From a virus (taxonomy: Duplodnaviria > Heunggongvirae > Uroviricota > Caudoviricetes), in IMG/VR virus record IMGVR_UViG_2778261465_000004, positions 1 to 15,090 of that record: DNA of 15,090 bases. One strand, given 5' to 3'. Below are positions 1 to 14,393 of the stretch, one piece after another (the stretch's first letter is position 1; the number at the start of each line of letters is the position of its first letter). Made by a program: the position numbers and the translations under genes. The notes under the pieces are model-generated. The model ran no database searches, was not told the origin of the DNA, and saw nothing but the letters and a program-made list of their open reading frames with translations.

Positions 1-711
1 TTAGGCCTGTGTCCATATTACGTGGGTAGGATCAATCCGGTATTTTGATAATTGATGGCCCTGCAGGTTTTCGGCTTCACTCCATCTCGCGCCGGTGGCC
101 AGACATATTTTTGCAACCGTCAGCAGACTAGAGTTTTGAGAATCAGCACAGGCATCCAGCAGACGTTTAATTTCTTCCGGGGTCAGGAACGCCAATTCAC
201 TCTCAGCAATTTTAAATGTTGGCAGCCCGGCAAGCGGGTTGGGGGCTGACCAGTGGCCCAGCTTTTTCAGTGTACCAAAAACAGATGATAGATTGCGCTG
301 TTCAAGGTTTACCGTGCGGGGCTTAACGGGCGACATAAGCGTGCCATCTTCATTTCGTACTTCACCTTTTAACCGTGCTTCGCGGTATTTCGTAAAGTCA
401 CCGGCTGTCAGTTCTGAAGCGATGGGATCGCCTAGACCATTACAGATAATACTAAGTTTCGCCATGAGGCGCTTGGGGTCTGTGAGTGTTTGACCATACA
501 GGGAATACCACAGCTCAATTAATTCTGATAAATGTCGCCGATCTTCCTTTTCCCCCAGCCATGGTTTTTTGTTCACTTCTTCCATTGTGAAGCTTTCAAA
601 TGCAATAGCTTCGCCTTTGGTAGCAAATTGCTTACGCACGCGCTTACCATTGCGTCCATTGGGATAGCACTCACACAACCATTTTCCGTTCGGCTGTTTT
701 CTGATGGTCAT
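1..711 (-). CDS. int: Tyrosine integrase, P2/186 Int family; partial, C-terminal part runs off the left edge of the window
   Basis: ORF start ATG at 709-711. N-terminus GRNGKRVRKQFATKGEAIAFE and the LATGARWSEA arginine box resemble P2 Int as recalled. Start lies 3 nt from the cI stop (715-717), typical of a cI-int operon. Confidence 0.9.
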   Translation of the reverse strand: MTIRKQPNGKWLCECYPNGRNGKRVRKQFATKGEAIAFESFTMEEVNKKPWLGEKEDRRHLSELIELWYSLYGQTLTDPKRLMAKLSIICNGLGDPIASELTAGDFTKYREARLKGEVRNEDGTLMSPVKPRTVNLEQRNLSSVFGTLKKLGHWSAPNPLAGLPTFKIAESELAFLTPEEIKRLLDACADSQNSSLLTVAKICLATGARWSEAENLQGHQLSKYRIDPTHVIWTQA

Positions 712-714
712 AAG

Positions 715-1365
715 TTAGAGGTTCTTGATTACTTTGACTGCACGTCCTACGACTTCCACATCATCTACAGAACATTCAAATGAAGTGTCATCTTGGTTAA
801 CTACTATTTTGTTTCCAGGTATGCGCGCAATTTTGACGATGTTTTTCATACCGTCGATGTCTATGAGCCAAATTCCGTTACTAAGCTGTTTTGTTGATGT
901 ATCAACAATGTAATTGCCGTCGTTAGCTTTGACGTACAAACAATATTCGGCTTTTCCGGGTATCAAAGTCTGATCAAGGAAAACATCCCCCATCTCTTCG
1001 AGCGTTCCGTTCTCAATGGTTGCCTGCCTTACTGATGGGATAACTATCTTTGAAAGGGGGCGAACTATAGGTGAACTCTCGTTTTTGAACTTATTTTTTT
1101 CTTCTGTTTGAGGATACATTTCCCCTTGGCCCGTTGTCAGCCAAAGAAGAGAAATACCTGTTTCAAGGGCACATTGAATAACCCAGTCAGCAGGGAAGCT
1201 ATCACGTAACATCCTGTTTGCCATGGTGCTTTTTGATGCTTCGAGGTGTTCAACCAACGCTATCTGAGTGTTGAAACCATAGGCTGTCATCAGCCTTTTG
1301 ATGGTCTCTCTCCCTCCCGTATTTGCACCTGTACTAATCTTCAAGATGAACTCTCCATTTGACAA
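715..1365 (-). CDS. cI: CI-like lysogeny repressor (phage 186 CI type)
   Basis: 216-aa ORF. CALETGISLLWLTTGQGE and C-terminal WLIDIDG...IPGNK...FECSVDDVEVVGRAV blocks parallel 186 CI as recalled. The codon at 1363-1365 is TTG, so the true start may be TTG or an internal ATG (MTAYGF). Confidence 0.85.
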   Translation of the reverse strand: MSNGEFILKISTGANTGGRETIKRLMTAYGFNTQIALVEHLEASKSTMANRMLRDSFPADWVIQCALETGISLLWLTTGQGEMYPQTEEKNKFKNESSPIVRPLSKIVIPSVRQATIENGTLEEMGDVFLDQTLIPGKAEYCLYVKANDGNYIVDTSTKQLSNGIWLIDIDGMKNIVKIARIPGNKIVVNQDDTSFECSVDDVEVVGRAVKVIKNL

Positions 1366-6900: not shown

Positions 6901-6920
6901 TACTGTAAATATAAACAGTG
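6901..6920. promoter_or_regulatory. LexA box (SOS operator) TACTGTAAATATAAACAGTG upstream of the 6961 operon
   Basis: Perfect CTGT-N8-ACAG core (6903-6918) with an AT-rich spacer. A partial second site lies immediately downstream (ACAG at 6930-6933; left half GTGG). Candidate -35 TTTACA at 6878-6883. Confidence 0.7.
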
Positions 6921-6960
6921 GTTATATATACAGTATTACTTTGGTGTCATAGGAGGAAAG

Positions 6961-7149
6961 ATGCAGGACTATTTTTTGGAGTCTTTGAAGCTCCAGCGCA
7001 TTGATTTTTTTCTTAAGCTTGTAGCGGCTAGTGAGTGTAGTGATGAAGAGAAGGGGCTGGCTCTGCAGTGGGTTTCTGAATTGACTGATGAACTCATGGC
7101 AAAAATCAGAACCCACGAATACAACCGCTCAATGGATGTCATCAGCTGA
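6961..7149 (+). CDS. SOS-regulated small protein, possibly the antirepressor (Tum-like) module
   Basis: 62-aa ORF with AGGAGG ribosome-binding site 5 nt upstream, immediately downstream of the LexA box. Function inferred from position only. Confidence 0.6.
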   Translation: MQDYFLESLKLQRIDFFLKLVAASECSDEEKGLALQWVSELTDELMAKIRTHEYNRSMDVIS

Positions 7150-7159
7150 GGTGACCTTT

Positions 7160-7393
7160 ATGCGCATTGAAATAATGATCGATAAAGAGCAGAAGATTAG
7201 CCAGTCTACCCTGGACGCCCTTGAATCCGAGCTTTACCGCAATCTGCGCCCCCTGTATCCCAAAACGGTAATTCGCATCCGCAAAGGTAGCTCTAACGGT
7301 GTGGAACTGACCGGACTGCAACTGGACGAAGAAAGAAAACAAGTGATGAAGATTATGCAGAAGGTGTGGGAAGACGACAGCTGGCTGCATTAA
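7160..7393 (+). CDS. DinI-like protein
   Basis: 78 aa starting MRIEIMIDK and ending QKVWEDDSWLH, colinear with E. coli DinI (MRIEVTIAK...ETWESADDWF) as recalled. GAGGTGA ribosome-binding site 6 nt upstream. The longer track ORF from 7088 is rejected. Confidence 0.8.
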   Translation: MRIEIMIDKEQKISQSTLDALESELYRNLRPLYPKTVIRIRKGSSNGVELTGLQLDEERKQVMKIMQKVWEDDSWLH

Positions 7394-7552: not shown

Positions 7553-7978
7553 CTACTTAATTGAGTCCAGTAACAAGTTACAGTTACTCTCATTGTAGAG
7601 AGAACGAGCAATTAGTGTTACCTGCTTTCCATTCATTCCCGGCTTATCCCATAACACAGCTTCTTGCGACGCCACAAATTCAGCATAATCAATTATGCGT
7701 TGTTCGTGATCTGGTTCCTCATAGCCAAAGTATGAGAGCGCATCGTTGTAAGCGTGGTAAGCTGCTTTCTGTAATATCTTGATATCGGCTGTAGGTACTT
7801 GCTCCGTGTAGCTAGGATCTAATTGTGTGCTACTGCCATAGAATGCACATGAAAGGTAAGATATTGATTTCTGTTGAGCTTTAGTTCCTTTCTCATAGTT
7901 TTTAGCTGTTACCGCCTGAACTGGGACGCTAACAAAGCTTGCAACCAGAATTAAAATTAATACGTAAAAGCTTTTCAT
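7553..7978 (-). CDS. Secreted/periplasmic protein of unknown function (cargo gene)
   Basis: 141 aa with classical signal peptide MKSFYVLILILVASFVSVPVQA (likely cleaved after VQA; no lipobox Cys). GAGGT ribosome-binding site 5 nt upstream. AT-rich relative to the phage backbone. Confidence 0.75.
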   Translation of the reverse strand: MKSFYVLILILVASFVSVPVQAVTAKNYEKGTKAQQKSISYLSCAFYGSSTQLDPSYTEQVPTADIKILQKAAYHAYNDALSYFGYEEPDHEQRIIDYAEFVASQEAVLWDKPGMNGKQVTLIARSLYNESNCNLLLDSIK

Positions 7979-8339: not shown

Positions 8340-8406
8340 CGCGCGCTTATTACTTTGATAGTACTCGGGTTATAATATGGATGACTATCTATCTCGGAGA
8401 ATGTAC

Positions 8407-10059
8407 ATGTCATTAGACTATATTAAAGAACAGTTGTCAGACTTTATTTCATCTGCAGAACCTGAGGTAATGGCTATTCAGGGTGAGTGGGGGATTGGGA
8501 AAACCTATACTTGGAATGCTTTCTTAAAGGAAAATAAAAATAAGATTGCATTTAATAGATATAGTTACGTCTCTCTTTTTGGTGTTAATTCATTGGACGC
8601 ATTAAAATACTCCATCTTTGAAAATACAATTACGAAAGATTTCATTGGAAACAAACCTAATTTAAAAACAGCAACACAAAATGCAAAGGGGCTTCTTGAA
8701 TCCTGCACTAGAAAGACCGCTCGTGTGTTAAAAGATACACCTTTTTTGAAAAATTTCACTACGACACTTGAGTCAATGTCATTTATGTCAATTACTAATG
8801 TTATTGTAGTCATAGATGACTTAGAAAGACGTGGTAAAAATTTAGAAGTGAAAGATGTCTTAGGGTTGGTTTCTTTATTGAAAGAACAAAAAAATTGTAA
8901 GGTGGTTCTTTTACTTAATAACGGGACAAGTGGTATGGATGACTACTCCACTTATAAAGAAAAGGTTATTGATAGAGAGATTACCTATAATCCTACTCCA
9001 GAAGAATGTGCAGTTATAGCATATAAAAATAATTCTGATGTTCATAAATTATTAAGCAAATACTCCATTTCCCTGGGTATTAAGAATATTAGGATACTGA
9101 AAAAAATAGAGCGGTTTTTGCTAGCCTTGTTACCTGGCATTAACGTTAATTTTGAAAAAATTGCAAATGAAGTCGCACACTCCTTAACTTTGTATTGTTG
9201 GAGTCATTACGCATTTACTCCAGATGGAGATGTACCATCATTGGAGTATATTAGAAATATGAGAAATATCTATATGCGTGATGAAAAAGAGGATGGAAAA
9301 GAAAAAAAATGGCTTAATACTTTGCTTATATATGATTATAAAAAAACAAACGAACTTGATGAAGTCCTTATAGACATGGTAAGGCATGGATATATTGATA
9401 TGAACAATTTCCAAAGGCAAGTAAGTCTAAGGAATGATGAACTTATCCGTGATAGTAAGCGAGGTTCACTGTTTGAAGCATGGAAGCTTTTCTATAATTC
9501 ATTTGAAGATAACCGAAATCAGGTTATTGATAATCTATATCAAGCGGTGGTTGGTGGGATAGAGTATGTAACTCCAAGTGACTTGGATAGTGTTGTCGGA
9601 CTGTATAGAGATTTAGGTGAAAATATTAAAGCAAGTGAATTAATAAGTAAATTTATTAATTACGGCAATGATGCTCTTAAGGAATATGTTCAATCTATTT
9701 ACATGAATGTTCATCCTATAAAAGATGCTGAGTTAAAGTCAAAAATCCAAGATTATTCTACTACTTTAAATCTGGATGGTTCTATAAAGGATGTTCTAAT
9801 AAAATTATCAAGTCAGAATGGTTGGTCTGATAGGCACGAGGAAATATTGGATGCTGCCTCAGAGGATGACTACTATGATTTATTTAAAAAAGTCATTCTT
9901 GATGGTGGTGATTCAATAATAGCTACTGCTCTTAAGTTTGGTGGGTATAGCAATGGTTCAGAAAGAATGAAACGCATCGGAGAAAAAGCGAGAAATGCTT
10001 TGATAAGAATTGGAAATGAGTCGAGCATTAATAAAATACGTGTTAGACGGTATTTGTAA
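8407..10059 (+). CDS. KAP-family P-loop NTPase, soluble (no predicted transmembrane insert); cargo gene, candidate anti-phage defence protein
   Basis: Walker A GEWGIGKT (GxWGxGKT KAP signature), Walker B VIVVIDDLERR (hhhhDDLxR), then VVLLLNN. Start chosen at the ATG 6 nt after GGAGA (8407); in-frame ATGs at 8377 and 8401 are alternatives. No long hydrophobic segment seen. Strongly AT-rich. Confidence 0.8.
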   Translation: MSLDYIKEQLSDFISSAEPEVMAIQGEWGIGKTYTWNAFLKENKNKIAFNRYSYVSLFGVNSLDALKYSIFENTITKDFIGNKPNLKTATQNAKGLLESCTRKTARVLKDTPFLKNFTTTLESMSFMSITNVIVVIDDLERRGKNLEVKDVLGLVSLLKEQKNCKVVLLLNNGTSGMDDYSTYKEKVIDREITYNPTPEECAVIAYKNNSDVHKLLSKYSISLGIKNIRILKKIERFLLALLPGINVNFEKIANEVAHSLTLYCWSHYAFTPDGDVPSLEYIRNMRNIYMRDEKEDGKEKKWLNTLLIYDYKKTNELDEVLIDMVRHGYIDMNNFQRQVSLRNDELIRDSKRGSLFEAWKLFYNSFEDNRNQVIDNLYQAVVGGIEYVTPSDLDSVVGLYRDLGENIKASELISKFINYGNDALKEYVQSIYMNVHPIKDAELKSKIQDYSTTLNLDGSIKDVLIKLSSQNGWSDRHEEILDAASEDDYYDLFKKVILDGGDSIIATALKFGGYSNGSERMKRIGEKARNALIRIGNESSINKIRVRRYL

Positions 10060-10092: not shown

Positions 10093-10491
10093 CTAATTCA
10101 ATGAATAATCTTTGAAGGCTATTATTTTTTTCTTTAGCCAAATATTAATTTCTACAAGTCTTTTTTGTAAAGGAGTTAACTCATTTCGCACAAAAACGCA
10201 ACTGGCTTTTTCTATATCCCCAAACCCCCCAACATTGTTTGGCATTATCCCCATCATCTGCGGCGGCACACGATGCGCCGCCATCATGTCATCCCGACTT
10301 ACGTTCTTGATGTTAAGAAATTCATCCTTCGCCGCGACTTCTGACAATGGGATGATCTGAAGCCCGTCTTTTTTGCCGTTAGGCGAGTACATAAACAGGT
10401 TGCGGAAGTTGCCTGGACCTTTGGCACTTTTCATCGCGTTGCGGAGGTTGTTCACATCCTCCTGATTCTGCGCGGCGTCGGTCATGTACAT
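10093..10491 (-). pseudogene. Q: 3' fragment of portal gene (P2 Q-like); N-terminal two-thirds deleted
   Basis: Leftward-reading ORF whose stop faces the cos-like site, as Q does in P2. Assigned as portal from orientation and position; no start context and no upstream late genes. Last ~30 codons are AT-rich, suggesting the cargo junction lies inside the 3' end. Confidence 0.5.
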
Positions 10492-10503
10492 GATGAAGCC
10501 TGC

Positions 10504-11532
10504 ATGGCGGTACTGCGCGGTGGACTGGCCGCCGCAGGCACGGTGCTGCGAGTACTGGCATCTGGTCCACTGGCGATGCTGCGCGTTGCCCTGTATGCCA
10601 TATCTGGTCTGTTAGGTGCTCTGCTCAGTCCGATAGGTCTTGTGGTTACTGCACTGGCGGGCGTGGCGCTGGTTGTCTGGAAATACTGGCAACCCATCAC
10701 CGCATTTCTCGGTGGCGTGGTGGAAGGATTCAAAGCGGCGGCAGGTCCCATCAGTGCAGCGTTCGAACCGCTTAAGCCCGTGTTCCAGTGGATTGGCGAC
10801 AAAGTGCAGGCGCTGTGGGGCTGGTTTACTGATCTGCTGACGCCCGTTAAGTCGACCTCTGCCGAACTGCAGAGCGCAGCGGCAATGGGGCGGCGATTCG
10901 GGGAGGCACTGGCGGAAGGGCTGAATATGGTCATGCATCCGCTGGACTCCCTGAAATCCGGCGTTTCCTGGTTGCTGGAGAAGCTCGGCATTGTCAGTAA
11001 AGAGGCCGCAAAGGCAAAACTGCCGGAAAGCGTGACGCGTCAGCAACCTGCGACGGTGAATGCAGACGGTAAAGTGATGATGCCATCGGGTGGTTTTCCA
11101 TCATGGGGATATGGCTTTGCGGGGATGTATGACAGCGGCGGGTATATCCCGCGCGGGCAGTTTGGCATCGTCGGTGAAAACGGGCCGGAAATTGTTAACG
11201 GCCCGGCAAATGTGACCAGCCGGAGAAATACAGCTGCACTGGCTGCCGTTGTTGCCGGAATGATGGGCGTTGCTGCCGCGCCAGCAGAGCTTCCACCGTT
11301 GCACCCTTTGGCACTTCCCGCGAAAGGTGGAGAAGCAATTGTGAGTCGCGCAGCCACTGTGCCGCTCGTTCAACGGATTGAGGCACCGACGCAGATCATC
11401 ATTCAGACGCAGCCAGGACAAAGTGCGCAGGATATTGCGCGGGAGGTGGCACGCCAGCTTGATGAACGTGAACGCAGGCTGAAGGCAAAAGCCAGGAGTA
11501 ACTACAGCGATCAGGGGGGATACGACGCATGA
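10504..11532 (+). pseudogene. T: 3' fragment of tail tape-measure gene (P2 T-like); N-terminal part deleted
   Basis: 342-aa frame ending 4 nt into gpU. Ala/Gly/Leu-rich hydrophobic segments typical of tape-measure C-termini. Frame is open upstream to 10345 with no ribosome-binding site; P2 T is far longer. Confidence 0.65.
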
Positions 11533-13179: not shown

Positions 13180-13398
13180 ATGATGAATTGTCCAAAGTGT
13201 GGTCATGCGGCACACACAAGGAGCAGTTTTCAAGTAACTGAAAGCACCAAAGAGCGTTACTGCCAGTGCCAAAATATTAACTGCGGGAGCACTTTTGTTA
13301 CTCATGAAACAGTGGTCCGGTTTATTGTGACACCCGCACTGATTGCTACTGCTCCTCCACATCCATTGCCAGGTGGTCAGGGGCATATGAATTTTTGA
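13180..13398 (+). CDS. ogr: Ogr/Delta-type zinc-finger late-gene transcriptional activator
   Basis: 72 aa from ATG 13180: MMNCPKCGHAAHTRSS...TKERYCQCQNINCGSTF...PHPLPGGQ parallels P2 Ogr (MFHCPLCQHAAHARTS...KERYHQCQNVNCSATF...PHPLPSGQ) as recalled. Confidence 0.85.
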   Translation: MMNCPKCGHAAHTRSSFQVTESTKERYCQCQNINCGSTFVTHETVVRFIVTPALIATAPPHPLPGGQGHMNF

Positions 13399-13403
13399 GA
13401 AAG

Positions 13404-13430
13404 AGAACCTGCTACGGCAGGTTTTTATTC
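13404..13430. terminator. Intrinsic terminator AACCTGC-TACG-GCAGGTT + TTTTTATT shared by convergent ogr (+) and the BRCT gene (-)
   Basis: Stem 13406-13412 / 13417-13423 followed by a T-run on the plus strand; the minus-strand gene's stop (13425-13427) lies inside the T-tract. Confidence 0.65.
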
Positions 13431-13907
13431 ATCTGGGATCTCACCCGTTTCAAGAAAATGTATAAAGCCAGGCTCATCTATGATGATTGTGCCTTTCATC
13501 CTGGCTGCCGATACTTTTGATGGGCCTGCATTGTAACCGCAACAGAGCATCTGAAGGCTTTGGGTTATAGAGGTTCTTACCGTTAATCCTTGTTCATTCG
13601 CCTTATCAACCAATCTTTCTTTATCTGCTTTCTTAAATCCGGTGAAACACACATCGAATGTATTTTTTTTCGGACCAGACTGCTTAGTGAGATGTGAGTA
13701 GCTTTCGGGGAGGAATGACGCGCATTCCTGAATGGCTTGTTCTGGTGAATCGTACTGTTTAAGAATGCGGTCTTTTCGGAAGGTTTTTATTCGATCGGTG
13801 TTCTTACAAATGCCCTGTATATGATTTTCGCTATAACTGATGCTCTGTATAGAGTGAACAGCGATACGACCATTTGCATTGATGTAAACAAAGTGAAGTT
13901 CTTCCAT
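13425..13907 (-). CDS. Small BRCT-domain protein with WYL-like N-terminal domain (cargo gene next to attR)
   Basis: C-terminal ~80 aa (FTGFKKADKERLVDKANEQGLTVRTS...GYNAGPSKVSAARMKGTIIIDEPGFIHFL) align by eye to the BRCT domain of NAD-dependent DNA ligase (LTGSLS...RDDAKARL...GAKVAGSVSKKTD...[24 protein letters not shown]). N-terminal ...HIQGICKNTDRIKTFRKDRIL resembles the C-terminal strand region of WYL domains (tentative). AGAGG ribosome-binding site 7 nt upstream. Confidence 0.75.
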   Translation of the reverse strand: MEELHFVYINANGRIAVHSIQSISYSENHIQGICKNTDRIKTFRKDRILKQYDSPEQAIQECASFLPESYSHLTKQSGPKKNTFDVCFTGFKKADKERLVDKANEQGLTVRTSITQSLQMLCCGYNAGPSKVSAARMKGTIIIDEPGFIHFLETGEIPDE

Positions 13908-13933
13908 GTGAAACCTCTTTGCATGATTTCAAG

Positions 13934-13972
13934 ATGGCGACAGGCAAGATGGACGCAAAAGTCTGTCGCCAT
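13934..13972. repeat. 10-bp perfect inverted repeat ATGGCGACAG-N19-CTGTCGCCAT with embedded AAGATGG direct repeat
   Basis: Arms at 13934-13943 and 13963-13972; AAGATGG at 13931-13937 and 13947-13953. Lies between the BRCT gene start and the ssrA 3' end. Confidence 0.5.
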
Positions 13973-13994
13973 TTTGCCGCCACTACCAAAGAAA

Positions 13995-14025
13995 AAGGGG
14001 CTACGCTTTCACGTAACCCCTTGAT
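13995..14025 (-). terminator. ssrA intrinsic terminator
   Basis: On the minus strand just after the tmRNA CCA end: AAGGGGTTACG-TGAAAG-CGTAGCCCCTT followed by TTTTCTTT. Confidence 0.6.
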
Positions 14026-14030
14026 TTATT

Positions 14031-14393
14031 TGGTGGAGCTGGCGGGAGTTGAACCCGCGTCCGAAATTCCTACATCCTCGGTACTACATGCTTAGTCAGT
14101 CTTTACATTCGCTTGCCAGCTGCGGACGGACACGCCACTAACAAACTAGCCTGATTAAGTTTTAACGCTTCAACCCCAGGCAGGGCTTCCACGCGATCTC
14201 TTTTGGGTTTGACCTCTCTTGATCCCCGTCCTAAGAGCGGAGGCTAGGGAGAGAGGGCTCTAAGCAGGTTATTAAGCTGCTAAAGCGTAGTTTTCGTCGT
14301 TTGCGACTATTTTTTGCGGCTTTTTACGAGGCCAACCGCCCCTCGGCATGCACCTTGGGTTTCGCAAATCCCGTCGAATCCAGAATCAGCCCC
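14031..14393 (-). ncRNA. ssrA: tmRNA (transfer-messenger RNA, SsrA), 363 nt
   Basis: Reverse complement reads GGGGCTGATTCTGGATTCGACGGGATTTGCGAAACCCAAGGTGCATGCCGAGGGGCGG...CGGGTTCAACTCCCGCCAGCTCCACCA, matching enterobacterial tmRNA across the tRNA-like ends. Confidence 0.95.

What the first reader, a model, noticed from the sequence alone, without database searches (positions are those of the whole stretch)
13425..13907. Small WYL-like plus BRCT two-domain protein between ogr and the attachment site
The C-terminal half reads as a BRCT domain (DNA-end or phosphopeptide binding, as in LigA); the N-terminal half has a WYL-like signature (RIKTFRKDRIL). WYL domains are ligand or nucleic-acid sensors common in defence-island regulators. 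A 160-aa fusion of these two domains, encoded convergently to ogr at the prophage edge, is not a combination I recognise. It could sense DNA damage or phage DNA and recruit or regulate other factors.
Basis: partly seen in the sequence, partly recalled or inferred. Interest (0 to 1): 0.65.

Follow-up and report, generated by a model that had tools for sequence, protein, structure and literature searches.

The report
Prophage WYL–BRCT accessory protein, function unknown
This is a real 160-residue gene at the edge of a P2/186-like E. coli prophage that joins a WYL-type sensor domain to a DNA-ligase-type BRCT domain; its relatives sit directly behind the master repressor gene of many temperate phages, and nobody has yet shown what it does.

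Summary
ORF 13425-13907 (-) encodes a 160-aa protein with an N-terminal WYL-type Sm-like barrel and a C-terminal BRCT domain of the LigA/RFC1 class. The BRCT 5'-phosphate pocket is intact: T89, G90, K96 and K131.

It is not a ligase or an exonuclease, as some records call it, because no catalytic domain is present. The architecture is already catalogued (PHROG 2561; RefSeq 'BRCT domain-containing protein'; one sentence in Makarova 2014), but I found no functional study.

New here:
- **Accessory status.** Sister ssrA-integrating phages lack the gene.
- **Position.** In the circular phage map it lies downstream of cI-int, across attP.
- **Synteny.** Relatives in P2-like, lambda-like and other temperate phages sit immediately downstream of, and co-oriented with, the CI/LexA-type repressor.
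- **Fusions.** About 29% of family representatives carry predicted transmembrane segments; others carry an unknown domain.
- **Non-prophage copies.** These lie beside Abi and type IV restriction genes.

Best reading (about 0.4): a non-enzymatic binder or sensor of 5'-phosphorylated DNA ends or junctions, made in lysogens, that acts in superinfection exclusion or abortive infection, by analogy with Rex. Main rival: a DNA-damage input to the lysis-lysogeny switch.

The parts
13425..13907 (-). CDS of the 160-aa WYL-BRCT protein (stop codon 13425-13427)
   Evidence: RefSeq WP_000391793.1 'BRCT domain-containing protein' at the same place in strain LF4-1
13752..13901 (-). WYL-type five-stranded Sm-like barrel, residues 3-52. 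Invariant Y8 and T42; motif K41-T-F-R-K-D-R-I-L49
13689..13745 (-). Two short helices (residues 55-73) packed after the barrel. They occupy the position of the WCX extension of WYL regulators
13656..13688 (-). Flexible linker, residues 74-84. It has the lowest pLDDT (about 68) and is variable in length across the family
13446..13655 (-). BRCT domain of the LigA/RFC1 class, residues 85-154. Phosphate-pocket residues T89, G90, K96, K131
   Evidence: yeast Rfc1 T166/G167/R174/K209 bind a 5' phosphate (PMC9359705) and align to these residues
13428..13451 (-). Conserved C-terminal tail E-T-G-E-I-P-D-E, residues 153-160
   Evidence: near-invariant T154, G155, E156; the same tail ends a LigA of Aquabacterium
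13914..13919 (-). Ribosome-binding site AAGAGG, 6 nt before the ATG
   Evidence: read from the sequence; conserved purine-rich block in relatives
13399..13430 (.). Hairpin between the convergent ogr and WYL-BRCT genes; a likely shared terminator
13930..13983 (.). Repeats of TGGCG(G/A)CA: two direct copies at 13963-13983 and one inverted copy at 13934-13943. The same motif is found on both arms of attP in related phages, so these are probably integrase arm-type sites. They overlap the only space available for a promoter of this gene
   Evidence: inference for the Int-binding role
13995..14022 (-). Strong intrinsic terminator directly after ssrA, supplied by the phage attP arm. It stands between ssrA and the WYL-BRCT gene
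14031..14393 (-). ssrA (tmRNA), the integration target. Same strand as the gene and upstream of it
13180..13398 (+). ogr/Delta-type late activator gene, convergent neighbour
1..1365 (-). int (1-711, cut by the window edge) and 186-type cI (715-1365). In the excised circular genome these lie upstream of the WYL-BRCT gene on the same strand, across attP

Best explanation
The gene is an accessory ('moron') gene of the lysogeny side of P2/186-like temperate phages. It encodes a small, non-enzymatic, two-domain protein: a WYL-type ligand-sensing barrel tethered by a flexible linker to a LigA/RFC1-class BRCT domain that keeps the pocket for a terminal 5' phosphate. The proposed mechanism has three steps. 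First, the protein is made in lysogens. Second, it recognises a phosphate-bearing nucleic-acid structure, most likely a 5'-phosphorylated DNA end, nick or ss/dsDNA junction, as found on incoming or replicating foreign DNA. Third, it excludes or aborts superinfection, either by occupying that structure or by signalling to a partner. This is functionally analogous to lambda RexA, which is also encoded just behind cI. In many relatives the same module is fused to transmembrane segments, giving a one-chain version of sensor plus membrane element. SHOWN: domain identities, pocket conservation, accessory status, conserved position behind the repressor, membrane and other fusions, and defence-island neighbours. 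INFERRED: the ligand, expression in lysogens, and the exclusion outcome.
For: Domains. Phosphate pocket: T89, G90 and K131 are invariant and K96 is at least 90% conserved in 41 homologues. They align with yeast Rfc1 T166/G167/R174/K209, which bind a 5' phosphate in cryo-EM structures (PMC9359705). No catalytic domain: the ligase and exonuclease models match only through their BRCT ends. Accessory gene: sister ssrA-integrating Peduoviridae (RE2010, SEN8, a Gegavirus) have only 47-73 aa ORFs at this site, and GC is 0.415 against 0.53-0.57 in the tail genes. Lysogeny-module position: in phages Cartapus and vB_YpM_MLG42 the order on one strand is cI, int, attP, this gene. In Xenorhabdus it is CI, gene, Int with 34- and 2-nt gaps. 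In Mannheimia phage PHL101 the CI-like repressor is followed by the gene after 3 nt. Vibrio phage PV94 and Burkholderia phages are similar. In 51 species genomes, all 15 CI/LexA-like genes found within 4 kb lie upstream on the same strand and none lies elsewhere. Five of six fused variants looked up lie directly behind an HTH-Peptidase_S24 repressor. Autonomy and a defence flavour: other copies lie between AbiGi-like and AbiTii genes (L015), beside Mrr (L027, L059) or beside McrB_N-HNH (L038), and next to SAM_4-type tyrosine recombinases (L017, L022). Cargo downstream of the gene in the cI-int interval includes a KAP NTPase, DUF4209 and bPH-SHOCT. Membrane link: 43 of the best 150 family representatives have predicted transmembrane segments. 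WYL precedent: WYL domains sense ssDNA in CapW, DriD and PafBC (PMC11662680).
Against: The window protein has no effector or membrane segment and no obvious partner gene beside it. It is neutral overall (pI 6.95), and the BRCT half is acidic (pI 5.3), which is unusual for a DNA binder. The two arginines that flank the WYL triplet and contact ssDNA in CapW are absent (E27-N28-H29-I30-Q31-G32), and the canonical Arg of strand 2 is H18 here. No sigma-70-like promoter was found in the 88 bp between the ssrA terminator and the ATG, so expression in the integrated state is unproven. No validated defence model matches; only the BRCT end of the PADLOC candidate PDC-S48 does. Position behind cI is also what a switch regulator would show. 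No experimental paper was found.
Confidence: 0.4

Rival explanations
1. Switch modulator. The protein senses DNA damage (ssDNA gaps with a 5'-phosphorylated junction) independently of LexA. It then tunes prophage induction by acting on the repressor, or on RecA loading at gaps.
For: The strictly conserved position directly behind repressors of several types, often with gaps of 3-34 nt that suggest operon coupling (78-83). WYL domains of DriD, PafBC and CapW are ssDNA damage sensors. A 2026 preprint notes, from genomics only, that cI and BRCT modules replace quorum-sensing modules in Roseobacter prophages and calls them DNA-damage regulators (10.64898/2026.07.02.736140).
Against: Closely related phages do without the gene. 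It accompanies both cleavable S24 repressors and 186-type CI, which has no peptidase domain, so a single repressor-directed mechanism is unlikely. This prophage already has a LexA box (6903-6918) in front of a small ORF plus a DinI-like gene. Copies exist with no repressor nearby, in defence islands. Membrane-anchored variants are hard to fit with a chromosome-damage sensor.
Confidence: 0.25
2. DNA-metabolism helper or LigA mimic. A free LigA-type BRCT module marks nicks or ends for the host ligase, or competes with the ligase's own BRCT. It would act on sealing of phage cos ends or on repair in the lysogen.
For: The BRCT is closest to the LigA and RFC1 BRCT domains. Bona fide LigA proteins of Aquabacterium and Roseateles carry a very similar BRCT, one of them with the ETGEIP tail. 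T5-like phages have a separate BRCT-bearing ligase subunit B (PDB 9hu3_B; Eps7).
Against: No ligase subunit A or other DNA-metabolism gene lies beside it. The gene sits in the lysogeny module, not among replication genes. All 28 isolated phages with a full-length homologue are 31-47 kb, and the five whose surroundings were inspected carry lysogeny genes (cI-type repressor and/or integrase) next to the gene. The match to E. coli LigA's own BRCT is weak (E 0.07-0.08).
Confidence: 0.12
3. Small-molecule binder. Both domains bind phosphate-bearing nucleotides rather than DNA, for example immune second messengers or ADP-ribose derivatives. The protein would act as a sponge or as a nucleotide-gated adaptor.
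For: There is no catalytic domain. The protein is neutral to acidic. The WYL domain was proposed as a sensor of negatively charged ligands, including nucleotides (PMC4012209). The ssDNA-contact arginines are missing.
Against: No association with cyclase, TIR or other signal-producing genes was seen in any neighbourhood examined. The pocket residues match those of the DNA-end-binding BRCT class.
Confidence: 0.08
4. The database labels are right: it is a DNA ligase (PHROG 2561, RefSeq phage records) or an exonuclease (phage Cartapus).
For: Annotations.
Against: The protein has only 160 residues. LigA models align only at positions 548-650 of 652 and the DEDDh exonuclease model only at 229-307 of 331, which are the BRCT ends. 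No adenylation or exonuclease domain is present.
Confidence: 0.01

Closest known systems
wHTH-WYL-WCX transcription regulators (DriD, PafBC, CapW, BrxR)
   Different: There is no HTH and no WCX domain. The barrel starts at residue 3 and is followed by two helices and a BRCT domain. The W-Y-L triplet is H-I-Q and its flanking ssDNA-contact arginines are absent. The protein cannot act as a DNA-sequence-specific regulator on its own.
Single BRCT domains of the LigA / RFC1 / PARP1 class
   Same: Same fold, best sequence matches, and the T-G ... R/K ... K phosphate pocket is conserved.
   Different: Here the BRCT is not an appendage of an enzyme or clamp loader; it makes up half of a 160-aa protein. 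The N-terminal helix that strengthens DNA binding in RFC1 is replaced by a flexible linker, and the domain is acidic overall.
Lambda RexA/RexB and other exclusion genes co-transcribed with the repressor
   Same: The same place in the genome: immediately behind the repressor gene and co-oriented with it. The architecture is comparable, with a soluble nucleic-acid-binding protein and a membrane element in fused relatives. The Rex comparison rests on established knowledge, not on a tool result.
   Different: No sequence or fold relationship was found. No exclusion phenotype is known. In this E. coli phage the gene is separated from cI-int by attP once the phage is integrated.
Coliphage 186 Tum / DinI-type SOS antirepressor module
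   Same: Both are accessory genes of 186-like phages linked to DNA damage.
   Different: There is no homology. This prophage carries its own LexA-box plus DinI-like unit at 6903-7393, and the WYL-BRCT gene has no LexA box.
PADLOC candidate PDC-S48 and PHROG 36782
   Same: PDC-S48 shares the BRCT end (E 4e-7; up to 2.7e-13 in relatives). PHROG 36782 (407 aa) contains the whole WYL-BRCT module at its N-terminus (E 1.6e-27).
   Different: Both are longer proteins with further, unannotated regions, and neither has a known function.
Subunit B of the split NAD-dependent ligase of T5-like phages (PR1, PDB 9hu3_B; Eps7)
   Same: A small phage protein carrying a LigA-type BRCT.
   Different: Only the BRCT aligns. 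There is no subunit A gene here, and the N-terminal domain is different.

Membership tests
WYL domain (Pfam PF13280) | Five-stranded Sm-like/SH3-like barrel | tested here: met
WYL domain (Pfam PF13280) | Profile match at the curated threshold | tested here: inconclusive
   The window protein alone gives no Pfam WYL hit (PADLOC WYL E 0.041). Homologues pass (22.8-28.6 bits against a 21.8 cut-off). The family profile hits PafC and PafBC at E 1e-5 and 5.7e-5.
WYL domain (Pfam PF13280) | Signature motifs: the W-Y-L triplet and the C-terminal R-x-F-R-x-D-R-I | tested here: inconclusive
   K41-TFRKDRIL is present and conserved. The triplet is H29-I30-Q31 (Y/H, I/L/F, Q/E/S in relatives).
WYL domain (Pfam PF13280) | Conserved ssDNA-contact residues of CapW/DriD (S144, R164, R168, R184 in R. 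leguminosarum CapW) | tested here: not met
   The arginines flanking the triplet are N28 and G32 here. Only the last Arg has a likely equivalent (R44). The ligand is therefore open.
BRCT domain, LigA/RFC1/PARP1 subclass | BRCT fold | tested here: met
BRCT domain, LigA/RFC1/PARP1 subclass | Profile match at the curated threshold | tested here: inconclusive
   The window protein scores 18.6 bits against a 21.3 cut-off. Homologues score up to 54 bits. The family profile hits LigA (1dgs) and RFC1 (2ebu, 7tfh) at E about 6e-5.
BRCT domain, LigA/RFC1/PARP1 subclass | Phosphate-binding pocket T-G ... R/K ... K | tested here: met
   T89, G90, K96 and K131 align with Rfc1 T166, G167, R174 and K209.
BRCT domain, LigA/RFC1/PARP1 subclass | Binding of 5'-phosphorylated DNA ends | not testable with these tools
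   This needs EMSA or fluorescence polarisation with 5'-P against 5'-OH substrates.
NAD-dependent DNA ligase LigA (label 'DNA ligase') | Adenylation (nucleotidyltransferase) domain with the catalytic lysine, plus OB, Zn and HhH domains | tested here: not met
   Only positions 548-650 of 652 of TIGR00575 align. The protein is 160 aa with two non-catalytic domains.
DEDDh exonuclease (label 'putative exonuclease') | DnaQ-like exonuclease domain | tested here: not met
   Only positions 229-307 of 331 of NF004719, the BRCT end, align.
wHTH-WYL-WCX regulators | N-terminal winged HTH and C-terminal WCX domain | tested here: not met
   There is no HTH hit, and the barrel begins at residue 3. One distant relative (P0248) has a weak HTH_31 hit.
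Validated anti-phage defence systems (PADLOC-DB 2.0) | Full-length match to a model of a validated system | tested here: not met
   Only the BRCT end of candidate PDC-S48 matches, plus weak WYL and SspE hits.
Repressor-operon exclusion genes (Rex-like, by position) | Immediately downstream of, and co-oriented with, the prophage repressor gene | tested here: met
   Met for relatives. For this phage it is met only in the circular map, across attP.
Repressor-operon exclusion genes (Rex-like, by position) | An exclusion or abortive-infection phenotype | not testable with these tools
   This needs phage challenge assays.

The most novel reading that the evidence does not exclude
WYL-BRCT modules define a widespread, unstudied class of prophage 'immunity-operon' proteins. 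They would read a physical feature of foreign or damaged DNA (a 5'-phosphorylated end or ss/ds junction) with two tethered nucleic-acid-sensing domains. The output would go either through a fused membrane segment (abortive infection or entry block) or, in the free 160-aa form, through direct capping of the DNA or contact with the switch proteins. That would be a new sensor logic for superinfection exclusion, found in P2-like, lambda-like and possibly Mu-like (one repressor with a Mu-type HTH) temperate phages.
Probability: 0.3. Interest if true: 0.7.

Novelty: new variant of a known kind. Interest (0 to 1): 0.5.

Why it matters
Genes transcribed with a prophage repressor are the ones a lysogen actually expresses, and several (rexAB, sieB, old, tin) founded whole areas of phage-defence research. 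This family is large: 862 clusters at E<=1e-10. It keeps the same place behind the repressor in very different temperate phages, and it is present in about 3% of complete E. coli genomes, yet it is labelled 'DNA ligase', 'exonuclease' or 'hypothetical'. If it recognises 5'-phosphorylated DNA ends or junctions, it would give a simple, testable example of structure-based (not sequence-based) recognition of invading or damaged DNA. It would also explain the membrane-tethered variants. At the least, the ligase and exonuclease annotations should be corrected.

Tried and rejected
- **Ligase and exonuclease labels.** Rejected, because only the BRCT ends of those models align.
- **LexA control of the gene.** Rejected. 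The only CTGT-N8-ACAG box in the window is at 6903-6918, far from the gene.
- **Simple read-through from ssrA as the expression route.** Doubtful, because a 12-bp-stem terminator lies between them. No sigma-70-like promoter was found either, so expression remains open.
- **The 14-nt inverted repeat upstream (13930-13976) as an operator.** More likely these are integrase arm-type repeats, since the same TGGCG(G/A)CA motif occurs on both arms of attP in phages Cartapus and MLG42.
- **First N-terminal profile (A2) against the PDB.** It gave only chance hits. A profile including more canonical relatives (A4) was needed.
- **IMG/VR scan.** It returned almost only near-identical prophage edges and added little.
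- **Foldseek against AFDB50.** The library was not available. BFVD gave mostly LigA BRCT hits plus one 162-aa Vibrio phage protein.
- **Literature searches on BRCT with P2-like, prophage, anti-phage, superinfection, lysogen or defence systems.** They found no functional study. There were only two passing mentions.
- **Adjacent membrane protein as a constant partner of the free form.** It is seen in some loci (L008, L010, L023, L026, PV94) but not consistently, and not in this window.

Full report
**1. What is at the coordinates**

The minus strand of 13425-13907 holds a 160-codon ORF. It has an ATG start, an AAGAGG ribosome-binding site 6 nt upstream, and a TGA stop.

The surrounding genes identify the window as E. 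coli DNA carrying a P2/186-like prophage in ssrA:
- gpU, gpD and ogr on the plus strand;
- then this ORF, convergent with ogr;
- then tmRNA (14031-14393, minus) and smpB.

RefSeq annotates the identical protein (WP_000391793.1) as 'BRCT domain-containing protein'. The 1-kb stretch containing the gene is found in 171 of 5426 complete E. coli genomes.

The ORF is a real gene. It matches PHROG 2561 end to end (E 2.4e-76). A first search gave 112 homologues. An exhaustive profile search gave 2419 clusters at E<=1e-3, 862 at E<=1e-10 and 189 at E<=1e-30.

**2. The two domains**

*BRCT.* Pfam BRCT scores 18.6 bits, just below the 21.3 cut-off. Other evidence is stronger:
- A profile of 41 homologues hits the BRCT domains of Thermus LigA and of human and yeast RFC1 in the PDB (E about 6e-5).
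- Relatives pass the Pfam threshold, with scores up to 54 bits.

In yeast Rfc1, T166, G167, R174 and K209 form the site for a terminal 5' phosphate (PMC9359705). In the HMMER alignment these residues fall on T89, G90, K96 and K131. Three of those are invariant and one is at least 90% conserved in the family. The BRCT therefore belongs to the DNA-end-binding LigA/RFC1/PARP1 class and keeps its phosphate pocket.

*WYL.* The window sequence alone gives no Pfam WYL hit. The case rests on the family and the structure:
- 7 of 29 family N-termini hit Pfam WYL, and several relatives exceed the gathering score.
- A profile including those relatives hits PafC and PafBC in the PDB (E 1e-5 and 5.7e-5).

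The eponymous triplet is H-I-Q here.

One caveat matters. The two arginines that flank the triplet and contact ssDNA in CapW (PMC11662680) are N28 and G32 here. The canonical strand-2 arginine is H18. The fold is WYL, but the ligand cannot be assumed to be ssDNA.

The two domains are joined by a low-confidence linker (residues 74-84). The overall pTM is 0.51, consistent with independent, tethered domains. Nothing else is present: no HTH, no WCX, no enzyme domain and no membrane segment.

**3. Genomic setting**

The gene is accessory. Sister ssrA-integrating Peduoviridae (Felsduovirus RE2010 and SEN8, and a Klebsiella Gegavirus) have only 47-73 aa ORFs between ogr and attP. The gene's GC content is 0.415, against 0.53-0.57 in the tail genes.

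The 'prophage edge' description hides a more telling fact. In the phage genomes of Escherichia phage Cartapus and Yersinia phage vB_YpM_MLG42 (genus Elveevirus), the order on one strand is cI, int, (a RES-domain cargo gene in Cartapus), attP, this gene.

In other phages the gene lies on the repressor side of attP:

| Phage or host | Arrangement |
|---|---|
| Xenorhabdus prophage | CI(186-type), gene, Int; gaps of 34 and 2 nt |
| Mannheimia phage PHL101 | CI-like repressor, then the gene after 3 nt |
| Vibrio phage PV94 | HTH protein, gene, one ORF, integrase |
| Burkholderia P2-like phages | XRE regulator, one ORF, gene |
| Serratia prophage | HTH, Flk_N protein, gene, Int |

Broader counts agree with this pattern:
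- Among 51 loci from one-genome-per-species data, an iterated local profile found 15 CI/LexA-like genes within 4 kb. All 15 lie upstream on the same strand (11 adjacent, 4 one gene away) and none lies elsewhere.
- Six more loci are of the ogr/ssrA-edge type.
- All 28 isolated phages with a full-length homologue are 31-47 kb. The five whose surroundings were inspected carry lysogeny genes (cI-type repressor and/or integrase) next to the gene.

**4. Family architecture**

Of the 150 best representative clusters, 90 are free modules of 210 aa or fewer. Forty-three carry predicted transmembrane segments, mostly N-terminal.

Another recurrent partner is an unannotated domain of about 200 aa with an F-x-E-G-D-x-F-Y motif. 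It is either fused on one side or the other, or encoded next door. PHROG 36782 probably represents that fusion.

I looked up the contigs of six fused variants. Five (P0221, P0196, P0202, P0121, P0138) lie immediately behind an HTH-Peptidase_S24 repressor, with a divergent Cro or CII gene. The repressor linkage therefore holds across fusion types and phage types.

Outside prophages, copies lie in the following places:
- between AbiGi-like and AbiTii genes (L015);
- convergent with Mrr-type restriction genes (L027, L059);
- next to a McrB_N-HNH gene (L038);
- next to SAM_4-type tyrosine recombinases (L017, L022).

In the cI-int interval of P2-like prophages, the genes that follow it are variable cargo: a KAP NTPase, DUF4209 and bPH-SHOCT.

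**5. Expression signals in the window**

Directly after ssrA there is a strong terminator (13995-14022, minus strand). It is part of the phage-derived attP arm.

Two direct copies of TGGCG(G/A)CA follow (13963-13983), with an inverted copy at 13934-13943. The same motif occurs on the other arm of attP in Cartapus and MLG42, so these are probably integrase arm sites (inference).

No sigma-70-like promoter passed the scan in the remaining space, and the gene has no LexA box. How the gene is transcribed in the integrated state is therefore unknown. This is the weakest link of any lysogen-function model for this particular phage.

**6. Mechanism**

*Shown.* The protein is a non-enzymatic pair of tethered sensor or binding domains. 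One of them has an intact 5'-phosphate pocket. It is encoded by an accessory gene whose conserved home is the transcription unit of the prophage repressor. Relatives carry membrane-tethered and domain-X fusions and have defence-island neighbours.

*Inferred.* The protein is made in lysogens. It recognises 5'-phosphorylated DNA ends, nicks or ss/ds junctions on incoming or replicating foreign DNA. It then blocks or reports them, giving superinfection exclusion or abortive infection. This parallels lambda RexA/RexB in gene position and in the pairing of a soluble sensor with a membrane element. That comparison rests on established knowledge of lambda, not on homology. I put this at about 0.4.

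*Main rival (0.25).* A LexA-independent DNA-damage input to the lysis-lysogeny switch.
- In favour: the tight coupling to repressor genes, the WYL precedents, and a genomic remark in a 2026 preprint.
- Against: sister phages lack the gene, and it accompanies both cleavable and non-cleavable repressors. This prophage already has a LexA box plus a DinI-like unit. Repressor-free copies exist in defence islands, and membrane-anchored forms are hard to fit.

*Lesser rivals.* A LigA-related helper or mimic (0.12); a nucleotide binder or sponge (0.08); and the literal 'ligase' or 'exonuclease' labels (0.01, refuted by domain content).

**7. Comparison with what is known, and novelty**

The WYL+BRCT combination was listed in a single sentence by Makarova et al. 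2014. The family is catalogued as PHROG 2561, so the architecture is not new.

It is not a member of the wHTH-WYL-WCX regulators, because it has no HTH or WCX. It is not a ligase or an exonuclease, and it matches no validated defence system in PADLOC.

As far as my searches could tell, the following have not been described or tested:
- the conserved placement behind prophage repressors across many phage types;
- the reading of the ogr/att position as the same neighbourhood across attP;
- the intact phosphate pocket;
- the frequent membrane fusions.

I rate it a new variant of a known kind (WYL-type sensors in phage and defence biology), with moderate interest (0.5).

Noticed in passing
window 10093-11532: The prophage is a deletion derivative. 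A 132-aa portal-protein fragment (10093-10491, minus) abuts the last 342 codons of the tape-measure gene (10504-11532, plus). The capsid, lysis and most tail genes that lie between Q and T in P2-like phages are therefore missing. In strain LF4-1 the tape-measure CDS is 3078 bp.
   Followed up: partly
window 8377-10059 (+): A 560-aa KAP-family P-loop NTPase gene lies in the variable cargo position between the replication and DinI genes and the portal gene (the old/tin position of P2). A related KAP NTPase is cargo next to the WYL-BRCT gene in Brenneria and Hafnia prophages (L023, L026). It is a candidate defence gene.
   Followed up: partly
window 6903-7393: This is the only perfect LexA box in the window (CTGTAAATATAAACAG, 6903-6918). 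It precedes a 40-codon ORF (6962-7084), which is followed in the same frame, after a TGA and one codon, by a 101-aa DinI-like ORF (7088-7393). Together they resemble the 146-aa Tum of phage 186, split by a stop. Related phages are annotated with two genes here, so the split may be natural.
   Followed up: partly
window 7553-7978 (-): A 141-aa ORF with an N-terminal hydrophobic signal-like segment and no Pfam match lies between the DinI-like gene and the KAP NTPase gene.
   Followed up: no
window 13930-13983; L053 and L054 attP regions: The motif TGGCG(G/A)CA is repeated on both arms of attP of ssrA-integrating Elveevirus phages. The window has two direct copies and one inverted copy just upstream of the WYL-BRCT start codon. 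These are probably integrase arm-type sites, and they overlap whatever promoter the gene has.
   Followed up: partly
L011, L013, L017, L033; proteins P0113, P0121, P0152, P0163, P0167, P0175, P0180: An unannotated domain of about 200 aa (motifs F-V-D-G-Y-A-A-G-W and F-x-E-G-D-x-F-Y) is repeatedly fused to either end of the WYL-BRCT module, or encoded next to it. It has no Pfam or PADLOC match.
   Followed up: partly
L039 (Aquabacterium MAG) and L046 (Roseateles paludis): LigA proteins of 843 and 883 aa have a long insertion before a C-terminal BRCT that is 42-45% identical to the phage family's BRCT. In L039 it includes the F-V-E-T-G-E-I-P tail. This suggests exchange of the BRCT between host ligases and the phage module.
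   Followed up: no
L021 6601-7206 (+): The gene just downstream of a WYL-BRCT homologue encodes a 201-aa protein that starts with another WYL-like barrel (R-R-T-F-K-L-A-N-I-L), followed by an unrelated C-terminal region. PHROG 6785 (396 aa) also matches only the N-terminal barrel of the window protein.
   Followed up: no
L053 5596-6801 (phage Cartapus): Cartapus carries a RES-domain (NAD+-binding toxin-like) gene between int and attP that the window prophage lacks. The int-attP interval is therefore a second cargo site in this phage genus.
   Followed up: no
L055 4317-4955 and L153 2215-2964: In Serratia and Burkholderia P2-like prophages, a tail-anchored membrane protein (Flk_N family in Serratia) is inserted between the repressor gene and the WYL-BRCT gene. 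This may be a split counterpart of the membrane-fused variants.
   Followed up: partly
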